Assembly: GCA_951406725.2 (NCBI GenBank)
Contig: OX597827.1
Span: 16,616,001 to 16,680,000 of the forward strand
Reading direction: 5' to 3'
DNA length: 64,000 nt
Source of the DNA: Octopus vulgaris
Lineage: Eukaryota
A model generated the notes under the pieces. It did not search any database and had not been told where the DNA came from. It saw only the letters and a program-made list of their open reading frames with translations. The position numbers and the translations under genes were made by a program. Positions 16,506-42,613 of the stretch are shown piece by piece (position 1 is the stretch's first letter; every line of letters begins with the position of its first letter).

Positions 16506-16980
16506 AGATAGAGGAAGAGAGAGAGAGAGTGTGAATGTGCGTTGACGGGCATAAAAGAATAACAATAAAAATATATATATCGTTTAGGCTCGTTTACTGG
16601 GAAATGTTTTGAAAATGCGAATAAATATTCCTATTCTATTGTGTCAGCTGCAGCCTAATGATGCCAACTGGCAATACCAGATTCTTGGCGTTGCAGCGAG
16701 CTGTGCCAATATAATGCAAGATAATTATAGTAATAATAATAATAATCCTTGGATGGAATTTACAAATTCATGATCTTAAGAAACATGCGTTTTGTGGAAA
16801 CGCACTTAGTGATGCATTAAAATATTTCTAAATCCCATCCAACGATTATTATTATTACTGTGCATACATACATATGTACATATACATATGCATAAATAAT
16901 ACACACACACACATACACACACACGCACGCACGCACACACACAATCATACACGTACATGTATGTCACCATGATAGATCGT

Positions 16981-17163
16981 TAGCCACTACACACATTTTT
17001 TCTCTCCTTGTTTCTCTCCTTGTTTTTTCTGTGTCACTTTCTGTAGAAGAGCATAGGCTCGAAAGGTAAAAGACTTTTTCCATTCCTGAGCGTTATACTA
17101 ATACATCTGTTTGTTTTGTACACCACCTGTCTTCGTCTTTTGTTTTCTTCGTAAACTCTCCCT
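16981..17163 (+). mobile_element. Short HHR-motif repeat, family A
   Basis: Near-identical to 7921-8103. Core at 17041: ctgtagaagagcataggctcgaaaggtaaaag. Confidence 0.75.
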
Positions 17164-17247
17164 ATATACATGTATAAATAGACAGATAGATATATATAAC
17201 ATTAAATAGGTGGCTTATTGGCAATTTGAATCCAAAGGAAAAATTAA

Positions 17248-17563
17248 TAGAGGTAACAAAAGTGACAGTACTAACTAGCATCACTGTTATTAGAAATATG
17301 TGTGAAAACAACTTAAAAGTCCACAAAGCACCATCTTAGTTGCTGACAAGGGGAGGTAAGCCCCCAGCATATATAGTCGCTGATGAGGATTGAGGTGGTC
17401 TACATTAAAATCCGAAATCGTCGATCCGACTATATAAGCTGGGGGCTTACCTCCACTTGTCAGTCACTAAGATAGTGCTTTGTGGCTTTTTGAGTTGCTT
17501 TTACTCTTATTGTCTTGCAATAGTGGTGCTAGTCAGTGCCCTCTGTAATTTTTGTGACCTCTA
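17248..17563 (+). mobile_element. Fold-back element: ~130-bp imperfect inverted arms with a hammerhead ribozyme at the apex
   Basis: Left arm (tagaggtaacaaaa..ccacaaagcaccatcttagttgctgacaaggggaggtaagcccccagcatatatagtcg) is the imperfect reverse complement of the right arm (cgactatataagctgggggcttacctccacttgtcagtcactaagatagtgctttgtgg..tttttgtgacctcta). Confidence 0.85.
17370..17436 (+). ncRNA. Type I hammerhead ribozyme with intact core
   Basis: Helix I tatatagtcg/cgactatata. CTGATGA 17380-17386. Helix II ggatt/aatcc. GAAA 17414-17417. Short helix III ATC-gtc-GAT. AUC triplet with predicted cleavage after 17426. Confidence 0.85.
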
Positions 17564-17581
17564 CATGTGACCTCGTGAGCA

Positions 17582-17770
17582 CCGCCAGCAATTTTTACCT
17601 CTCTCTTCCTTTCTCGGGATCTTTCCTTCTCCTTTGTTTCCGACGAAGACCTCCGCTCGAAACGTTAAACCCTCCTTCTTCCCTTCTTTCCTGAGCGTTC
17701 AATAATACTTTATTTGTTCCACGTCCTCGCGTTGCTGTGTTTTTTTTGTGTTTTCTTGTTTGGATTAACT
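17582..17770 (+). mobile_element. Short HHR-motif repeat, family B
   Basis: gttt-CCGACGA-A-GACCtccGCTC-GAAA-CG-TT-aaac at about 17636-17670, then a ttcctgagcg tail ending in (TA)n. Related copies at about 5955-6126 and 57900-58006. Confidence 0.65.
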
Positions 17771-17808
17771 ATATATATATATACTTACATATATATATAT
17801 ATATATAT

Positions 17809-23167: not shown

Positions 23168-24240
23168 CTACAGCAACAACAACAACAGCAACAACCACAG
23201 GAAAGCAACATCGAAAGCTAAAAAGAAATCCTAAGTGCAATATGCAAGGATATTATCAATAATAATATCATAAGAAGTTTGATCTTTATGACCCGATTGA
23301 TTTAAAAAATGAAAACTGAAAATATCTGTTCGAAAGTGAAAGTAAGTGATCCAAAGTAATAATAACCTCAACATCGTCATCAGCAGCACAACAGCCATTA
23401 ATAACACTACACAATCTTCCATCATCTGTACCACTGTCCCCAGCAACACTATCACCAACATAACCATACATTTCTTCTTTATTACGTTTCCCTAAAATTA
23501 TTTGCTCCATTTATCTATTTATTTATTGAAATATTCCATAGAACTCACTTTTCTATTTCTTCTGCGTGCCAGTGTTTAGGAATTTTTTTTTAATCTCTCA
23601 CATCTTCTATCTCTCTCTTATGTTTTTATTTTTGTTTCTCTATCTCTCTATCAATCAAACACTCGACATTTAAACAAAACAATTTAATAATAATAATAAT
23701 CGTTTTATTTTTTTGAAAATATTTTCACTTTTGTTTTCTTCAAATAAGATAACTGAAAGATAGCTTAGTTTGCTTTGGTTTATTTGTTTAAAGAAACATA
23801 CGAGGAACCCGAGTCTCTCCCCTAATCCCCCTCTCTCTCTCACACACACGCACACTCATATCTTTATATGTATATGTATATGTACTTGTATATGTTGACT
23901 TTACAAGGAAATTATGCAAAGACATTTGGTCAAGTGAAACCAAGCTCTGATAATTGAACATTCTTCGTTATTAACAGAACGAAAGAGGAAAATATAAAAC
24001 GAAAAGAAATCACGAGAAACGCAGTGAAAAGAATCACCGAAAGAAAGGAGAGAGGGAGAGAAAGGTGAAAGAAGATAGAATTATTGAAATAATCATAAAA
24101 ATAATTATAATAACAATAACAAAAAAAGAAGCGGCAACAAGAGCTGCTTCTTTCTGTTTTCAAATAAAATTCTTCATGCAAATAACAGTCGTATTCCACT
24201 AATAAAACCGAGTTAATTTCGGAGTGAAAAGTGTAGCGTC

Positions 24241-25224
24241 ATGGAAACACCACTTCCGGATACAACAACGTTTCACAATGAATCTACTGTGGGAAAACAA
24301 ATATCACTATCTCTACAGATTACCTTTGGCATCACTTACGGGATTATAGCTATCATCACACTTGTGGGCAATTTATTGGTGCTCATCGCCGTTTTAAAAT
24401 TTCAACGTCTTCAAATTCCAACGAACTACTTTGTGTGCAGTCTTGCTTTCGCTGATGTGACAGTCGCCATTTTAGTGTTACCACTGTCTTTAATTTATGA
24501 CCTTACAGGTGGAGAATGGTGGTTCGGTTGGGTGTTTTGCTACTTTTGGCGGTCTTGTGACGTCATGTGTTGCACAGCATCTATTTTGCATTTATGTTGT
24601 ATTTCTCTAGACCGCTATTGGGCAATCACTAAGCCGTTTGCCTACACCATGAAAATGTCTAAAGGAAGAGTAGCTTGCATGATCATAACCGTCTGGTTTT
24701 GCAGCGTTTGCATATCGTTCATTCCGTTCTATTTAGGCTGGTTCACCGACGATCCAGACACACTATACACAGATACAGGCAAATGTGATTTAACAGTTAA
24801 TAAAATTTACGCTGTACTTTCTGCAATGACATCTTTTTATATTCCATTTATCGTCATGGTATTTTCATATGCAGCCATTTTAAGAATTGCGAAAATACAG
24901 GCAAACGCCATAAAAAAGAGCATCCCCAGACACAGTTATACCGGTGGTGGCGGGCAAGAAAAATACGAATCGGCGGCTAGTGATAGAAAAGCACTGAGGA
25001 CCCTCGGAATAATAATGGGGGTGTTTATTGTTTCTTGGTTACCGTTTTTTCTAATGTATATAATTATGCCCTTTTGTTCTGAGTGTGAAATATCTCCGAT
25101 GGCAATATCGGTTATTACATGGCTTGGTTATGGCAACAGTTGTATGAATCCTGTTATATATGCATTTATGAACAGGGACTTCCGTCTGGCTTTTAAGAAA
25201 CTTCTCACTTGTTCTGTTTCATGA
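24241..25224 (+). CDS. Intronless rhodopsin-family (class A) biogenic amine GPCR, probably octopamine/tyramine (phenolamine) receptor-like, 327 aa
   Basis: Seven hydrophobic segments with canonical motifs: TM1 GN (LVGNLLV), TM2 SLAFAD, TM3 amine-binding Asp (SCDVMCCTASILHLCCISLDRY), TM5 SAMTSFYIP (S5.42/S5.46), TM6 KALRTLGIIMGVFIVSWLPFFLMY, TM7 NSCMNPVIY, helix 8 DFRLAFKKLL. N-glycosylation site NES. Good start context gtcATGg with an in-frame upstream TAA at 24214-24216. Exact subtype needs phylogeny. Confidence 0.95.
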   Translation: METPLPDTTTFHNESTVGKQISLSLQITFGITYGIIAIITLVGNLLVLIAVLKFQRLQIPTNYFVCSLAFADVTVAILVLPLSLIYDLTGGEWWFGWVFCYFWRSCDVMCCTASILHLCCISLDRYWAITKPFAYTMKMSKGRVACMIITVWFCSVCISFIPFYLGWFTDDPDTLYTDTGKCDLTVNKIYAVLSAMTSFYIPFIVMVFSYAAILRIAKIQANAIKKSIPRHSYTGGGGQEKYESAASDRKALRTLGIIMGVFIVSWLPFFLMYIIMPFCSECEISPMAISVITWLGYGNSCMNPVIYAFMNRDFRLAFKKLLTCSVS

Positions 25225-26399: not shown

Positions 26400-26588
26400 A
26401 GTAGTTGAATGAATTATCTTAGTATGGATAATTCCGTTAACCGATACCTGGGTAGCAAATTCACGTCAGAAAAACACGGTTGAAGCTACATGCCAAGGGC
26501 AAAGATCACGTGCTTTCGTGTGGAAATTTGTGTGTTTTTTTAATACAAATAAATGAAAGAATGGAGTTGAACGACGATTTAACAAAAT

Positions 26589-26686
26589 TCCTTTATTCTC
26601 GACATATGTTTCGAAGGCTGCATATTCCTAATTTCGAAGAAATAAGGAGTGCATTATGCCGCCTTCTCATCAGGAAAAACAAGGAA
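26589..26686 (-). ncRNA. Type I hammerhead ribozyme in left (inverted) PLE terminal repeat
   Basis: Minus strand: ccttgtttttc-CTGATGA-gaaggcggcata..tatgcagccttc-GAAA-catatg-TC-gagaataaagg. Intact core, long helix II, palindromic helix III (ACATATGT), GUC cleavage triplet. Confidence 0.85.
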
Positions 26687-26859
26687 CTTATGTCAGCATC
26701 AAGATGAACAAAGTCTCTAAGATGGCTGCCCACACGGAGTCCATAGCGATAATGAGTGTTTCTTTAAAATATTCCGTTATAAGCAGTGACGTCAAAAATG
26801 GTTGAATGTCGAAGATCTAGAAAGTTCAGGAGTTCAAACAAGGTTGGAGGGGAGAGAGG

Positions 26860-29274
26860 GGAACCCCTCCAGCAAATCCCAGACTGAAGAAATTTGAAGA
26901 TGATCTGTGGGACATCGTAAGGGACATTAAATTCCGTAAATCGCCCCTTAGGAATAAAAACCTCAAATACCTCGATAAAGTCACCAAAGATATAAACAGA
27001 TTAGACGCTATCCTGGTCCAATCGGATAAAACCAGGAACACATATAAGCTAGCTAAGAACCAGTATTTAGAAATGCTCAAGAAAGAAATACATAAGAATT
27101 ACAGGACAACAAATAGGAATACACTCAGACAAGCCAACTTAGAAATTAAGAAAATCATGGAAACGTATGGATTACAAATGAAAACACAACCGCTGAACCC
27201 CAGACAACCAAGATTCATCGTTAAGAACCATAAACCGAACTTTCATACCAACCCGGAATTAAGGCTCATATGCCCCTCTAGTTCCGACATCGGTACCCTT
27301 AGTAAGTACATTTTAGATAAATACATACCTATATTAATCAATAAGTTAAAACTCAGCTTATGGTCTAACTCCACTAAAGTCGTAGAGTGGTTTACTTCTA
27401 TTACTAATAAGGACAACACGAAATTCATTCAATTCGATATATCTAGTTTCTACACTTCGATCAACCCTAGTGTACTCAATAAGGCCCTTTGGCACGCACA
27501 TAATAAGGCAGGCCTTTCCAGGGAGGAAAATCTTTCATACAGTTCGATGATAAGTTATGGGTCCGCAGAGATACCCCCAACGCGTTCGATGTGCTAATGG
27601 GAAATACAGAGAGCGCCCAGATAGCCGATTTGGTCGGAATCTATATTCTCTATGAATTGGCCGACCAATTCCCGGACATCTGCGGCGGTCTGTATCGAGA
27701 CGATTGTCTACTTTACCTACAGAATGCTCCGAACAATATGATACAGAAGACTAAAAACAGATTAGCTAGATTCTTTAGCAGAATGGGCTTGAGCATAGTT
27801 TTCGGCGACGAATTAACTAAAGCCAACTTCTTAGATGTTACCCTAAATCTGCAGAATAATTCTTACTTCCCTTATCATAAGCCTTCTACTAATCTTAAAT
27901 ATATCAGCATTTTCAGTAACCATGCCAAAACTATCACCGATAATTTAGTTAAAAATATTTCCTTAAGACTATCAAATTTATCTGCTAATGTCGACATCTT
28001 TAACCAAAAAGCGGAATTTTATAACGCCGCCTTGTCAAAAGCCGGTTATACAGATAAAGTATCATATATCGACCTGGCCCATTCTAAACCAATATATTCT
28101 TCTCAGGATAAGAAAACTAATAACAATAGAAATAATGTGAATAATGATTTCAGCTCTAACAACGTCGACACCACTATACTTAAGAAAAATAATTTACGGA
28201 CCAGGGGAGGCAATCGGCAACCAACACCAATTTTCCAGCACAGAAATATTCCCTTTAATGTAAATGGTAACACTCTGAATAATTCTAAGTCCACAAAAAA
28301 CTATATCTGGTTTGTCATACCTTTCGGGAAACAAATCAGGTCAAACCTTCCTTTACAGTTCCGTGAAGCCATAGCTAGGAACTTTCCCAGGAATTCTAGG
28401 TATTACTCTACTATCAATTCGCATAAGGTAAGGATTGCATTCTCCAACACTAGAAATCTATCGCAGATCATTGCCTCCCATAATAACAATCTGCTAAATA
28501 AGGATTCATCACCCGGGAGTTACGACACTGCTCTTACCAATTCCAACCAAACATACAATAATAATAATAATAGAAATAGTATTGATAATAGCAACATTCA
28601 TAGCAGCGTTGGCATTAACAATAGTAATATTAATAATAATATTAGTCGGATTACTAACAATGGTAGTGTTAGTGGTAGTAACGACAGCATTTCTAATAAC
28701 AGTGGTAGTATTGATGATAACAACCCCAGCATTCCTATAGTCTGGGAAATTGCCGACGATAGTACAATTAATAGTAATGATAATAATAGGAATAGAATTG
28801 TGGTCAATGCTAGCAATAATATTAACAGCAATCATAACAATAAAAACTCCGTTTTAGTCTCGGAGGTAAACCCTAACAGATTAAAGTTCCAGCAATTCCA
28901 AAATTAGAAATTCCATTTACCAGTGTAAAATTTCTTCCGGTACCGATGTCTTCTTCTACATTGGGGCAACTACTTCCAAATTAGCCCAGAGGATTTCCAA
29001 TCATTATTCAACTTTCCGAGATAAGAGAAAACAACAAAGCACAGGACTAAGTAAATTAGTTTGGCGTCTTAAGGACAGCAATATATCTTTCAAGCTGGAA
29101 TGGTCCATATTGTCTGTATCCTTTCCGTTTGATAAGGGCAGAAAATTTTGTGGCGTCTGTAATTCCGAAATTTTCCATATATTGTTCGCCAAATTCCCTT
29201 TAGTAAATACAATTGTTGAAAAATCCTATAGGTGCATGCACTGGCAGAAACACACCTTTCACTCATATGAATGA
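26860..29274 (+). pseudogene. Disrupted PLE polyprotein (reverse transcriptase + C-terminal GIY-YIG endonuclease)
   Basis: Frame 1: ..ILVQSDKTRNTY..KPNFHTNPELRLICP..FIQFDISSFYTSI. After a frameshift/deletion near 27527: AFDVLMGNTESAQIADLVG..GGLYRDDCL..NFLDVTLNL..PYHKP..SNH. After a second frameshift near 28885-28905: SIYQC..FYIGATT..RISNHYSTF..STGLSKLVWRLK..EWSIL..CGVCNSE..CMH, stop TGA 29272-29274. This endonuclease segment is absent from the ORF track. Confidence 0.9.
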
Positions 29275-29831
29275 TGATTAATATAGATAACCTCCTTGAA
29301 TTTAATAATTTGGTTCTATTTATACAACACCACCATAGACAAATTTTTATACTCATAAAGGACTACTATCAAATTCGTTGAGGTATGTTTTACCTTTGTC
29401 TCTCTACCTCGCCCTCCTCTCGCTCTCCCCCTCTCTCTATCGTAAGCACAATCAAACACACAGACACAAACCTGTCACTTCACCACCGTTTGTTCTTGGC
29501 ATCTAACCAACCACACACACAATCACGCTCACACATACACACACATAGACACGAATGCAGTTATATACATACACACACATAGGCACTCAATCGCAAAAGC
29601 AAAACAACAACACATCACCATTCATATGACTTGCACCCTGTCACCTTCCTATTCTTAGATCTCTCCCCTCCAACCTTGTTTGAACCCTTGAACTTTCTAG
29701 AATCTTCTACATTCAACCATTTTGATGTCACTGCTTATAACGGAATATTTTAAAGAAACATTCATTATCGCTATGAACTCCGTGTGGGCAGCCATCTAAG
29801 AGTTTTTGTTCATCTTGATGCTGACATAAGT

Positions 29832-29928
29832 TCCTTGTTTTTCTTGATGAGAAGGCGGCATAATGCACCCCTTATTCCTTCGAAATTAGAAATATGCAGC
29901 CTTCGAAACATATGTCGAGAATAAAGGA
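29832..29928 (+). ncRNA. Type I hammerhead ribozyme in right PLE terminal repeat (C3U core variant)
   Basis: TTGATGA 29844-29850, helix II gaaggc../..gccttc, GAAA 29905-29908, catatg, predicted cleavage after C29916. Same motif as the left copy except CTGATGA>TTGATGA. Confidence 0.75.
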
Positions 29929-29962
29929 ATTTTGTTAAATCGTCGTTCAACTCCATTCTTTC

Positions 29963-30000
<38 letters not shown>

Positions 30001-41766: not shown

Positions 41767-42613
41767 TATTTATATATAAAAGAAAGGTTGTGTGTCTGTC
41801 TACTCCGATTTAGATTCCTAACTACTCCCACATTTTGCGATGCAGTTTAACCAAAACCGGGTATCTTATAGTCGTGATTCATATTGAGCCCTTCTGGGTA
41901 TTAGCGCGCGTCTACGATGAGTCTATGATTTTAAAAATAATTTACCATCATTTTTTTCCATTTTAATGCATATTTTTTTTAATAAAGGGAAGTAACTCTC
42001 AAACTTCACAACAATATGCGTGCTCATATGCGACGTAATATCACATCAGCAGCATTTCCTCACACCCTCCTTGCACTTGGCGAAGGCAAAATACCAGGGG
42101 ATGAAAATGGTAATATTGCCATCGATTCCATTTGTACCATTGTTAAGACGCCTTCTGATCTCAGAGATGCAGTGTTCCCAGATCTACAAGCTAATTATCA
42201 GAATATGGATTGGATTGGCAAAAAGGCTATCCTGGCCCTGAGGAATAAAACTGTTCACCATATTAATGATGAAATGCTAAAACTCATTCCTGGGGAAGTC
42301 TATGTATATCAGTCTATCGATACAACTCCTGACCCAGAGGACGTCATCAACTATCCAATAGAGGTACTCAATTCCTTTGAGCACCCCGGACTACCACCAC
42401 ACTTTCTCAAACTTAAAGTTGGTGCCCCTATAATGCTCATCAGATATTTGGTTCCCCCAAAACAATGCAATGGCACACGTTTGATCGTTAAGTCCTTATC
42501 TCCCACCGTAAACTTATATCAATATTTGCCTGAATAATCATCATAATTCAGTGCAATCATTAACAGTACTTTCAAGCAATTCAGCCCCGAGCAACGCCGG
42601 GCAATTCTGCTAG
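41767..42613 (+). mobile_element. Helitron with PIF1-like helicase fragment
   Basis: Same 5' ~230 bp and 3' hairpin+CTAG as 6142-6534. ORF 42016-42537: KAILALRN..YPIEVLNSFEHPGLPPHFLKLKVGAPIMLIRYL..CNGTRL (Helitron RepHel helicase motifs). Confidence 0.9.

What the first reader, a model, noticed from the sequence alone, without database searches (positions are those of the whole stretch)
17248..17563. Intact hammerhead capping a ~130-bp rod-like hairpin
Seen: helix I of a perfect-core HHR (CTGATGA..GAAA..ATC) continues as a long imperfect stem, so the whole ~315-nt RNA would fold as a rod with the ribozyme as its tip. No ORF is evident. Inference: this resembles viroid-like or retrozyme rod RNAs more than an ordinary MITE. 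Arm mismatches increase outward, which could reflect selection on structure near the core. Cleavage would yield a nicked dsRNA end able to prime or template RT.
Basis: partly seen in the sequence, partly recalled or inferred. Interest (0 to 1): 0.78.

Follow-up and report, generated by a model that had tools for sequence, protein, structure and literature searches.

The report
Head-to-head insertion of hammerhead retrozyme repeat
The hairpin with a hammerhead-ribozyme motif at its tip is real, but it is two shortened copies of an old, scattered 336-base repeat joined head to head, likely pasted in by a Penelope-like jumping gene, and so an ordinary by-product of insertion, not a viroid-like RNA.

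Summary
The type I hammerhead motif (17375-17431, predicted cut after 17426) and the long hairpin are real (z = -17.5). The rod, however, is not a unit. It is one insertion of an old dispersed 336-bp repeat: an inverted copy (17198-17379) joined through 5 shared bases of helix I to a direct copy (17375-17563). Across the genome 43 of 77 family loci are such head-to-head pairs and none of 69 checked is tail-to-tail; junctions vary; the window's junction occurs once. The two outer ends fall at two fixed places about 50 nt apart, one per arm (26 of 27 classed pairs), mostly beside simple repeats: the Penelope-like 'inverted copy plus tail' signature. Arms are 84% identical, like other loci (mean 81%); the mismatch gradient (p 0.11) and G-U bias (p 0.13) are not significant. 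Helix I covaries in the native unit. Verdict: new family of non-LTR retrozyme type with Penelope-like insertion marks; the rod is a by-product. Cleavage, transcription and the partner enzyme were not shown. The scan noted the same kind of object in another genome.

The parts
17198..17379 (-). Inverted, 5'-truncated copy of the repeat unit (unit positions about 52-238), carrying the long 3' end; forms the left arm
17198..17247 (-).
17375..17563 (+). Direct, 5'-truncated copy of the unit (positions 1-187) with the short 3' end; holds the hammerhead and the right arm
17375..17379 (.). 5-nt overlap (AGTCG) that belongs to both copies: the 5' strand of helix I and the reverse complement of the first five bases after the cut site
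   Evidence: junction unique in the genome
17375..17431 (+). Type I hammerhead motif: core intact, helix II 5 bp plus weak extension, helix III 3 bp with near-palindromic loop; predicted cut after 17426
17163..17197 (.). AT-rich simple repeat next to the long end; likely the target
   Evidence: sequence; family pattern
17564..17775 (+). Separate, younger repeat (94-97% identity among the 39 best other copies) abutting the short end; not part of the element
16978..17198 (+). Separate repeat on the left flank with three more copies in the window; not part of the element

Best explanation
The hairpin is a single insertion of an old, dispersed 336-bp hammerhead-bearing repeat, made of two truncated copies joined head to head at a 5-base overlap, likely written in by a Penelope-like reverse transcriptase-endonuclease. 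Shown: the family, its tandem 336-bp unit, 5' truncation at any place in the unit, head-to-head pairs, two fixed 3' ends with one per arm, simple-repeat neighbours, no coding frame, covariation in helix I. Inferred: a source array was transcribed, and the hammerhead, probably as a dimer through its palindromic helix III, cut it to units that may have been circularised; a Penelope-like enzyme acting in trans cut both strands of AT-rich DNA and primed two cDNAs, one at each of two start sites about 50 nt apart; both cDNAs stopped early and their free ends were joined by short complementarity. At this locus the complementarity used was helix I itself, so the ribozyme ended up as the loop and the two copies as the stem. 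The copy has since decayed; with one ribozyme only it could not release a unit-length circle.
For: Genome search gives dispersed copies at 76-88% identity that mostly match from the hammerhead onward. 39 of 69 distinct loci are head-to-head, 0 tail-to-tail; 4 of 8 further loci are head-to-head. 26 of 39 pairs have one end at unit 174-202 and the other at 231-253; 1 has two short ends, none two long ends, 12 have one or both ends elsewhere. The shorter arm has the long end in 16 of 26 pairs, so it is not simply a copy of its partner's end. 68 of 84 classed 3' ends have a simple repeat within 30 nt against 316 of 1400 control positions. Blocks longer than one unit are common, up to about 3 units. 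Helix I pair 3:54 is C-G in 34 and T-A in 29 of 86 units. 17 of 68 hammerhead-spanning segments in similarity-selected loci pass a strict descriptor, so an intact core is not rare. Arm identity 0.84 here, mean 0.81 over 37 pairs. A young autonomous RT + GIY-YIG family in the same genome shows the same inverted copy plus tail at the one locus read in full. Literature: inverted 5'-truncated copy and one-sided tail (PMC8557442; PMC3846280); both-strand cutting and two RT start sites that define the tail (PMC11167929).
Against: The autonomous partner was not found: the young Penelope-like family tested shares no more than 13-17-nt chance-level matches with the unit, and no ORF lay upstream of the unit in 70 loci (output partly cut). 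The tail here is about 50 nt, longer than the 30-40 nt in print. The right end abuts another repeat, not a simple repeat, so the original right flank cannot be read; no target duplication was found. A 5-nt overlap is uncommon by chance (0.7% of random junctions), and most other junctions show 0-3 nt or small insertions. No RNA data. Core columns diverge less (0.068) than other parts of the unit (0.097-0.123), not tested for base composition.
Confidence: 0.9

Rival explanations
1. Same insertion, but the inverted arm is the cDNA of a ribozyme-cleaved RNA: RT ran off the 5' end made by cleavage and the cDNA end annealed through helix I to the second cDNA. The junction would be a fossil of cleavage in vivo. 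This is a variant of the best explanation, not exclusive of it.
For: The reverse complement of the left arm can be read as starting exactly at the first base after the cut site. Overlaps of 5 nt or more occur in 0.7% of random junctions.
Against: The overlap makes the register ambiguous (arm start anywhere in unit 52-57), and helix I complementarity alone gives this junction without any cleavage. 7 of 117 5' ends lie at unit 48-58 against 3.8 expected, p 0.09, and other 11-nt windows hold as many or more; none of the other 8 ends inspected starts cleanly at the cut site. In PMC11167929 cleavage was not needed for insertion and no reads began at the cut site.
Confidence: 0.25
2. A viroid-like or otherwise selected rod RNA: the 315-nt hairpin is transcribed, cleaves itself, and the nicked duplex end primes or templates RT or feeds small-RNA pathways.
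For: Very stable rod; core intact; the + strand folds better than the - strand (-179.2 vs -159.9); only 2 differences in the innermost 37 columns.
Against: Junction unique. The rod's ends are not the element's ends. Arm identity, gradient (p 0.11) and G-U vs A-C (9 vs 4, p 0.13) are within expectation; strand differences of similar size occur in other pairs, e.g. L003, L009, L021. 21 of 39 pairs have stems of 100 bp or more and 6 have loops of 100 nt or less; L157 has a near-identical join that removes the start of the core, L154 a tight hairpin with no ribozyme. One ribozyme cannot excise a circle. The long perfect helix I removes the native internal loop next to the 5-bp helix.
Confidence: 0.04
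3. Snap-back of one cDNA (self-priming at helix I), or a later inverted duplication, made the hairpin from a single copy.
For: Self-priming was proposed for Penelope inverted junctions (PMC3846280). The arms share 8 non-majority bases against 2.4 for random pairs; over 37 pairs 3.9 vs 1.6, p 4e-5.
Against: The left arm has 50 nt of unit sequence that the right arm lacks, and its end matches the family's second end class; the flanks are not duplicated. Shared bases are at least partly subfamily marks also seen in L004, L009, L012, as expected for two RNAs of one source at one time.
Confidence: 0.08
4. A MITE or other DNA-transposon derivative with terminal inverted repeats and a TA duplication that happens to hold a hammerhead-like loop.
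For: The stated stretch begins and ends with TA and has long inverted arms.
Against: The left TA lies inside the unit, which continues to 17198; no other locus has the same two ends or centre; copies are 5'-truncated tandems with fixed 3' ends.
Confidence: 0.01

Closest known systems
Non-LTR retrozymes of animals (Cervera and de la Pena 2020, PMC7229834; Li et al. preprint 10.64898/2026.07.22.740005)
   Same: Non-coding tandem unit of about 300 bp, GC under 45%, one type I hammerhead per unit, short helix III with palindromic loop, dispersed monomers to short multimers; the majority unit folds well as a circle (z -6.4, 40 shuffles).
   Different: Old family with no near-identical copies found (best other copies 84-88%); expression and circles not tested; the head-to-head form and one-sided tail are not described for retrozymes in the parts of these papers that I read.
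Insertion unit of endonuclease-positive Penelope-like elements: partial tandem, inverted 5'-truncated copy, optional tail (PMC8557442, PMC3846280, PMC11167929)
   Same: Head-to-head arrangement, variable 5' truncation, tail on one end, AT-rich or microsatellite targets, hammerhead upstream of the RT start sites.
   Different: No RT or GIY-YIG frame; whole element is the repeated unit; tail about 50 nt; partner family not identified.
Minimal and near-minimal type I hammerheads of Penelope-like pseudo-LTRs (PMC4209133)
   Same: Long helix II, 5-bp helix I, small palindromic helix III, weak monomer fold; that paper also notes pairs of motifs 100-700 bp apart on opposite strands.
   Different: No extra base between the core and helix II; at this locus helix I is extended by the inverted copy instead of by the native upstream sequence.
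Viroids and viroid-like or HDV-like circular RNAs (recalled)
   Same: Rod-like fold of about 300 nt with a hammerhead.
   Different: Single chromosomal locus, ribozyme in one polarity only, rod made by an inverted duplication, no evidence of a circle or of RNA replication.

Membership tests
Type I hammerhead ribozyme | Conserved core and three helices, open at helix I | tested here: met
Type I hammerhead ribozyme | Covariation in helices among relatives | tested here: met
   helix I pair 3:54 C-G 34, T-A 29, T-G 13, C-A 3 of 86; helix II pair 14:38 G-C 70, A-T 8 of 93. One or few events, inherited by subfamilies
Type I hammerhead ribozyme | Self-cleavage | not testable with these tools
   Active monomer fold 8.1 kcal/mol above the minimum; helix III region self-dimerises at -8.7 kcal/mol. 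Energy model has no tertiary terms
Non-LTR retrozyme (family level) | Tandem unit of 150-400 bp with one type I hammerhead per unit | tested here: met
   336-bp unit, blocks up to about 3 units
Non-LTR retrozyme (family level) | Non-coding, no LTR features | tested here: met
   No long open frame on the sense strand of the majority unit; none in the window stretch
Non-LTR retrozyme (family level) | Expressed as linear and circular monomers | not tested
   No read data obtained
Active non-LTR retrozyme (this locus) | Two consecutive units with complete hammerheads | tested here: not met
   One hammerhead only; the inverted copy starts after the cut site
Penelope-like insertion product | Inverted 5'-truncated copy at the 5' end | tested here: met
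   43 of 77 loci
Penelope-like insertion product | Tail on one end only | tested here: met
   26 of 27 pairs with both ends classed; 12 of 39 pairs unclassed
Penelope-like insertion product | AT-rich or simple-repeat target | tested here: met
   68 of 84 ends vs 316 of 1400 controls
Penelope-like insertion product | Homology to the pseudo-LTR of an autonomous partner | tested here: inconclusive
   One young family tested, no homology; other families not surveyed
Autonomous Penelope-like element | RT plus GIY-YIG frame | tested here: not met
MITE | Multi-copy unit with fixed terminal inverted repeats and target duplication | tested here: not met
Viroid-like rod RNA | Rod kept as a unit by selection, circular, ribozymes able to release it | tested here: not met
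   Unique junction, neutral-looking arms, single ribozyme; circularity itself not tested

The most novel reading that the evidence does not exclude
This family is a fossil record of how animal retrozymes move: a small circular hammerhead RNA copied by a Penelope enzyme from both strands of one cut, at two start sites, with the two cDNAs joined head to head; and at this locus one cDNA ran off the ribozyme-cut end and was caught by helix I, which would be genomic proof of hammerhead cleavage of a Penelope-type template in vivo.
Probability: 0.2. Interest if true: 0.55.

Novelty: new member of a known kind. Interest (0 to 1): 0.24.

Why it matters
The locus itself matters little: it is a decayed copy whose shape follows from the way it was inserted. 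The family is of modest use. That animal retrozymes are moved by Penelope-like enzymes has been argued from shared ribozymes, co-occurrence and sequence trees; here a purely unit-built, non-coding family shows the mechanical marks of Penelope integration directly (head-to-head pairs, one-sided tail, simple-repeat targets), and the one-end-each rule fits the two reverse-transcription start sites found in vitro. Library searches for 'retrozyme' with 'head-to-head' (0 papers), with 'cephalopod' (1 listed) and 'hammerhead ribozyme' with 'octopus' (4 listed) showed no description of this family by title or abstract start; subscription papers, repeat databases and supplements were not seen. It is also a caution for scans: a ribozyme at the tip of a rod can be a by-product of Penelope-type insertion.

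Tried and rejected
Rfam found no hammerhead at gathering score; the miRNA-family matches at E-value mode are generic hairpin scores below their cut-offs. A search for other copies of the fold-back junction with up to 2 mismatches gave only the window. Clustering of 5' ends at the cut site: not significant. Mismatch gradient and wobble bias: not significant. Mutual-information scan for pairs in the extended native helix I: only the helix I and helix II pairs above stood out as pairings; other high scores look like subfamily linkage or misalignment. Search for shared non-unit sequence upstream of the 5' ends: the visible hits were the partner arms; the output was cut, so this is incomplete. Candidate partner: the Penelope-like frame beside L015 is a separate young insertion with no homology to the unit; the fragment beside L041 was fetched and showed no link. 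Target duplication scan: one 4-nt match that does not fit the ends. Rows dropped: 20 of 90 loci as overlaps and L074 as a near-duplicate of L073 (69 left); 22 of 30 later loci as already seen (8 left); 2 of 39 pairs with under 40 shared columns; the L056 row in alignment A1 covers the wrong stretch and was ignored. Transcription and cleavage in reads remain untested. Look-ups of earlier scan notes by sequence and by place gave nothing.

Full report
Observation. The stretch 17248-17563 folds as one rod at -179.2 kcal/mol, z -17.5 against 100 shuffles. No frame of 100 aa overlaps it. Rfam gives nothing at gathering score and only a weak hammerhead match at E 0.98. In the minimum-energy fold the core is mispaired with the helix III bases; forcing the active fold costs 8.1 kcal/mol, and the family majority sequence in its native context behaves alike (7.5 kcal/mol). 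The model has no tertiary terms, and short helix III motifs are reported to need a dimer (PMC4209133, parts 1-2 of 4 read); the helix III stretch here pairs with itself at -8.7 kcal/mol.

The family. The window lies in a 2.8-Gb genome rich in microsatellites; it looks octopus-like to me, which is recall and was not tested. A DNA search scored 40 of 456 candidates and returned dispersed copies at 76-88% identity, most matching from query position about 128 on, that is from helix I onward. Four searches (one search returned only the window) gave 77 distinct loci after removing overlaps and one near-duplicate. They define a 336-bp unit in partial tandems of up to about three units. An exact 18-base helix pattern occurs 34 times in the genome, 0 for the reversed control. 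No near-identical copies were seen (best others 84-88%), so the family is old. Selection of loci was by similarity or pattern, not a census.

Architecture. 39 of the first 69 loci are a minus-strand block followed directly by a plus-strand block; none is tail-to-tail. 4 of 8 later loci are head-to-head too. The 5' ends are spread over the whole unit, and the junctions differ from locus to locus, with 0-6 nt of overlap or short insertions. The 3' ends fall in two groups, near unit positions 174-202 and 231-253. In 26 of 39 pairs one arm has the short end and the other the long end; one pair has two short ends, none two long ends, and 12 have an end elsewhere; 26 of 27 under a 50:50 null is about 2e-7 (hand calculation). 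68 of 84 such ends have a simple repeat within 30 nt, against 316 of 1400 control positions. These are the marks described for endonuclease-positive Penelope-like elements: partial tandems, an inverted 5'-truncated copy, a tail on one end (PMC8557442, passages; PMC3846280, passages). In vitro, an anole Penelope-like enzyme cuts and extends both strands, prefers AT-rich DNA and starts reverse transcription at two sites that delimit the tail (PMC11167929, parts 1-3 of 4). A young family in this genome, with open frames up to 784 aa, many copies identical over the 136-aa query, an RT-like YLDD motif and a GIY-YIG match at Pfam's cut-off, shows the same inverted copy with a one-sided tail at the one locus read in full; it shares no real homology with the unit, so the partner remains unnamed.

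This locus. It is one such pair: an inverted copy from unit position about 52 to 238 (17379 down to 17198, long end, next to an AT-rich simple repeat) and a direct copy from position 1 to 187 (17375-17563, short end). The right neighbour from about 17564 is a different, younger repeat. The two copies share five bases, AGTCG, which are both the 5' strand of helix I and the reverse complement of the bases after the cut site. In other copies helix I is preceded by different sequence that forms its own imperfect stem of about 40 bp with an internal loop next to the 5-bp helix. The window's junction occurs once in the genome, with up to 2 mismatches allowed.

Selection on the rod. Arms are 84% identical over 126 columns; the mean of 37 pairs is 81%, and of random pairs 79%. 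Arms share more non-majority bases than random pairs (8 vs 2.4 here; 3.9 vs 1.6 overall, p 4e-5), which fits a common source subfamily, seen also in L004, L009 and L012, but does not exclude a single template or later conversion. The gradient is 8 of 68 inner against 16 of 69 outer columns (p 0.11), wobble against A-C is 9 to 4 (p 0.13). Against my reading: the innermost 37 columns have only 2 differences, the + strand folds 19 kcal/mol better than the - strand (three of nine other pairs differ by 16-32 in either direction), and core columns diverge less than the rest of the unit (0.068 vs 0.097-0.123; not corrected for composition). Long hairpins are routine: 21 of 39 pairs have stems of 100 bp or more, 6 with loops of 100 nt or less. 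L157 has almost the same join but loses the start of the core, L154 is a tight hairpin without a ribozyme. 17 of 68 hammerhead-spanning segments in similarity-selected loci pass a strict descriptor, so the intact core needs no special cause. Selection did act on the source elements: helix I pair 3:54 switches between C-G (34) and T-A (29) among 86 units.

Mechanism. Shown: unit, tandems, truncation, head-to-head pairs, two ends, targets, covariation. Inferred: transcription of a source array, dimer-assisted cleavage, perhaps circularisation as reported for animal retrozymes (PMC7229834, passages and sections 14 and 17); copying in trans by a Penelope-like enzyme from both strands at two start sites; joining of the two cDNA ends by short complementarity, here helix I. 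Copies longer than one unit pass through the cut site, so the templates were uncut multimers or circles. That the shorter arm carries the long end in 16 of 26 pairs favours two primings over snap-back. Whether the inverted arm began at a cleaved end is open: the fit is exact and a 5-nt overlap has a 0.7% chance per random junction, but helix I gives this join without cleavage, and 5' ends are not enriched there (7 of 117 vs 3.8, p 0.09).

Comparison. It works like a Penelope-type insertion of a non-LTR retrozyme. The family meets the sequence-level features of non-LTR retrozymes; expression is untested; this locus fails the two-ribozyme test for an active one (definition in 10.64898/2026.07.22.740005, parts 1-3 of 5 read; its supplements not seen). 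That preprint argues for a Penelope origin from co-occurrence and trees. It is not a MITE, not an autonomous element and not a viroid-like RNA by the tests above. An octopus repeat annotation lists recently active Penelope-like families and never uses the words ribozyme, hammerhead or retrozyme in its main text (PMC13282606, passages). Searches showed no description of this family; repeat databases and supplements may hold it. An earlier scan note on another genome reached the same kind of verdict; I saw it after forming my reading and did not check its locus.

Verdict. Observation confirmed, interpretation partly supported. New member of a known kind; interest 0.24.

Noticed in passing
window 24217-25224 +: Single-frame 335-aa rhodopsin-family GPCR (7tm_1, E 2.5e-71), 6.6 kb right of the hairpin; looks like a biogenic-amine receptor (recall, untested). 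Whether the hairpin lies in its transcription unit is unknown.
   Followed up: partly
window 26543-29974: Broken Penelope-like element framed by 255-bp inverted arms: RT-like frames at 26821-28907, an asparagine-rich stretch before a C-terminal GIY-YIG match (E 7e-4, below cut-off). Asparagine-rich inserts were described in rotifer Penelopes (PMC3846280).
   Followed up: partly
window 7200 (-) and 7351 (+): Identical hammerhead-like motif on opposite strands about 150 bp apart: probably another head-to-head insertion of a different family.
   Followed up: no
window 17564-17775, 16978-17198 and 6002: Other high-copy short repeats with hammerhead-like, altered cores; the first has a fixed 5' end preceded by simple repeats and at least 2040 candidates in the genome.
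   Followed up: partly
L091-L121: Young autonomous Penelope-like family, 51 of 150 scored places identical over 136 aa, several with 784-aa open frames, zinc-finger-like linker before the GIY-YIG; no canonical hammerhead seen in its 3' region by a loose pattern.
   Followed up: partly
window 17553-17561 and 17567-17574; L105 3' region: The 8-mer GTGACCTC lies at the short 3' end of the unit, at the 5' end of the neighbouring repeat and in the 3' region of the young autonomous family; may be chance or a shared enzyme-binding motif.
   Followed up: no
L073 and L074: The same head-to-head insertion occurs twice on one contig, about 600 kb apart and inverted: a segmental duplication.
   Followed up: no
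window 41986-42537 -: Pif1 helicase 2B domain fragment (E 2.6e-13), probably a Helitron remnant.
   Followed up: no
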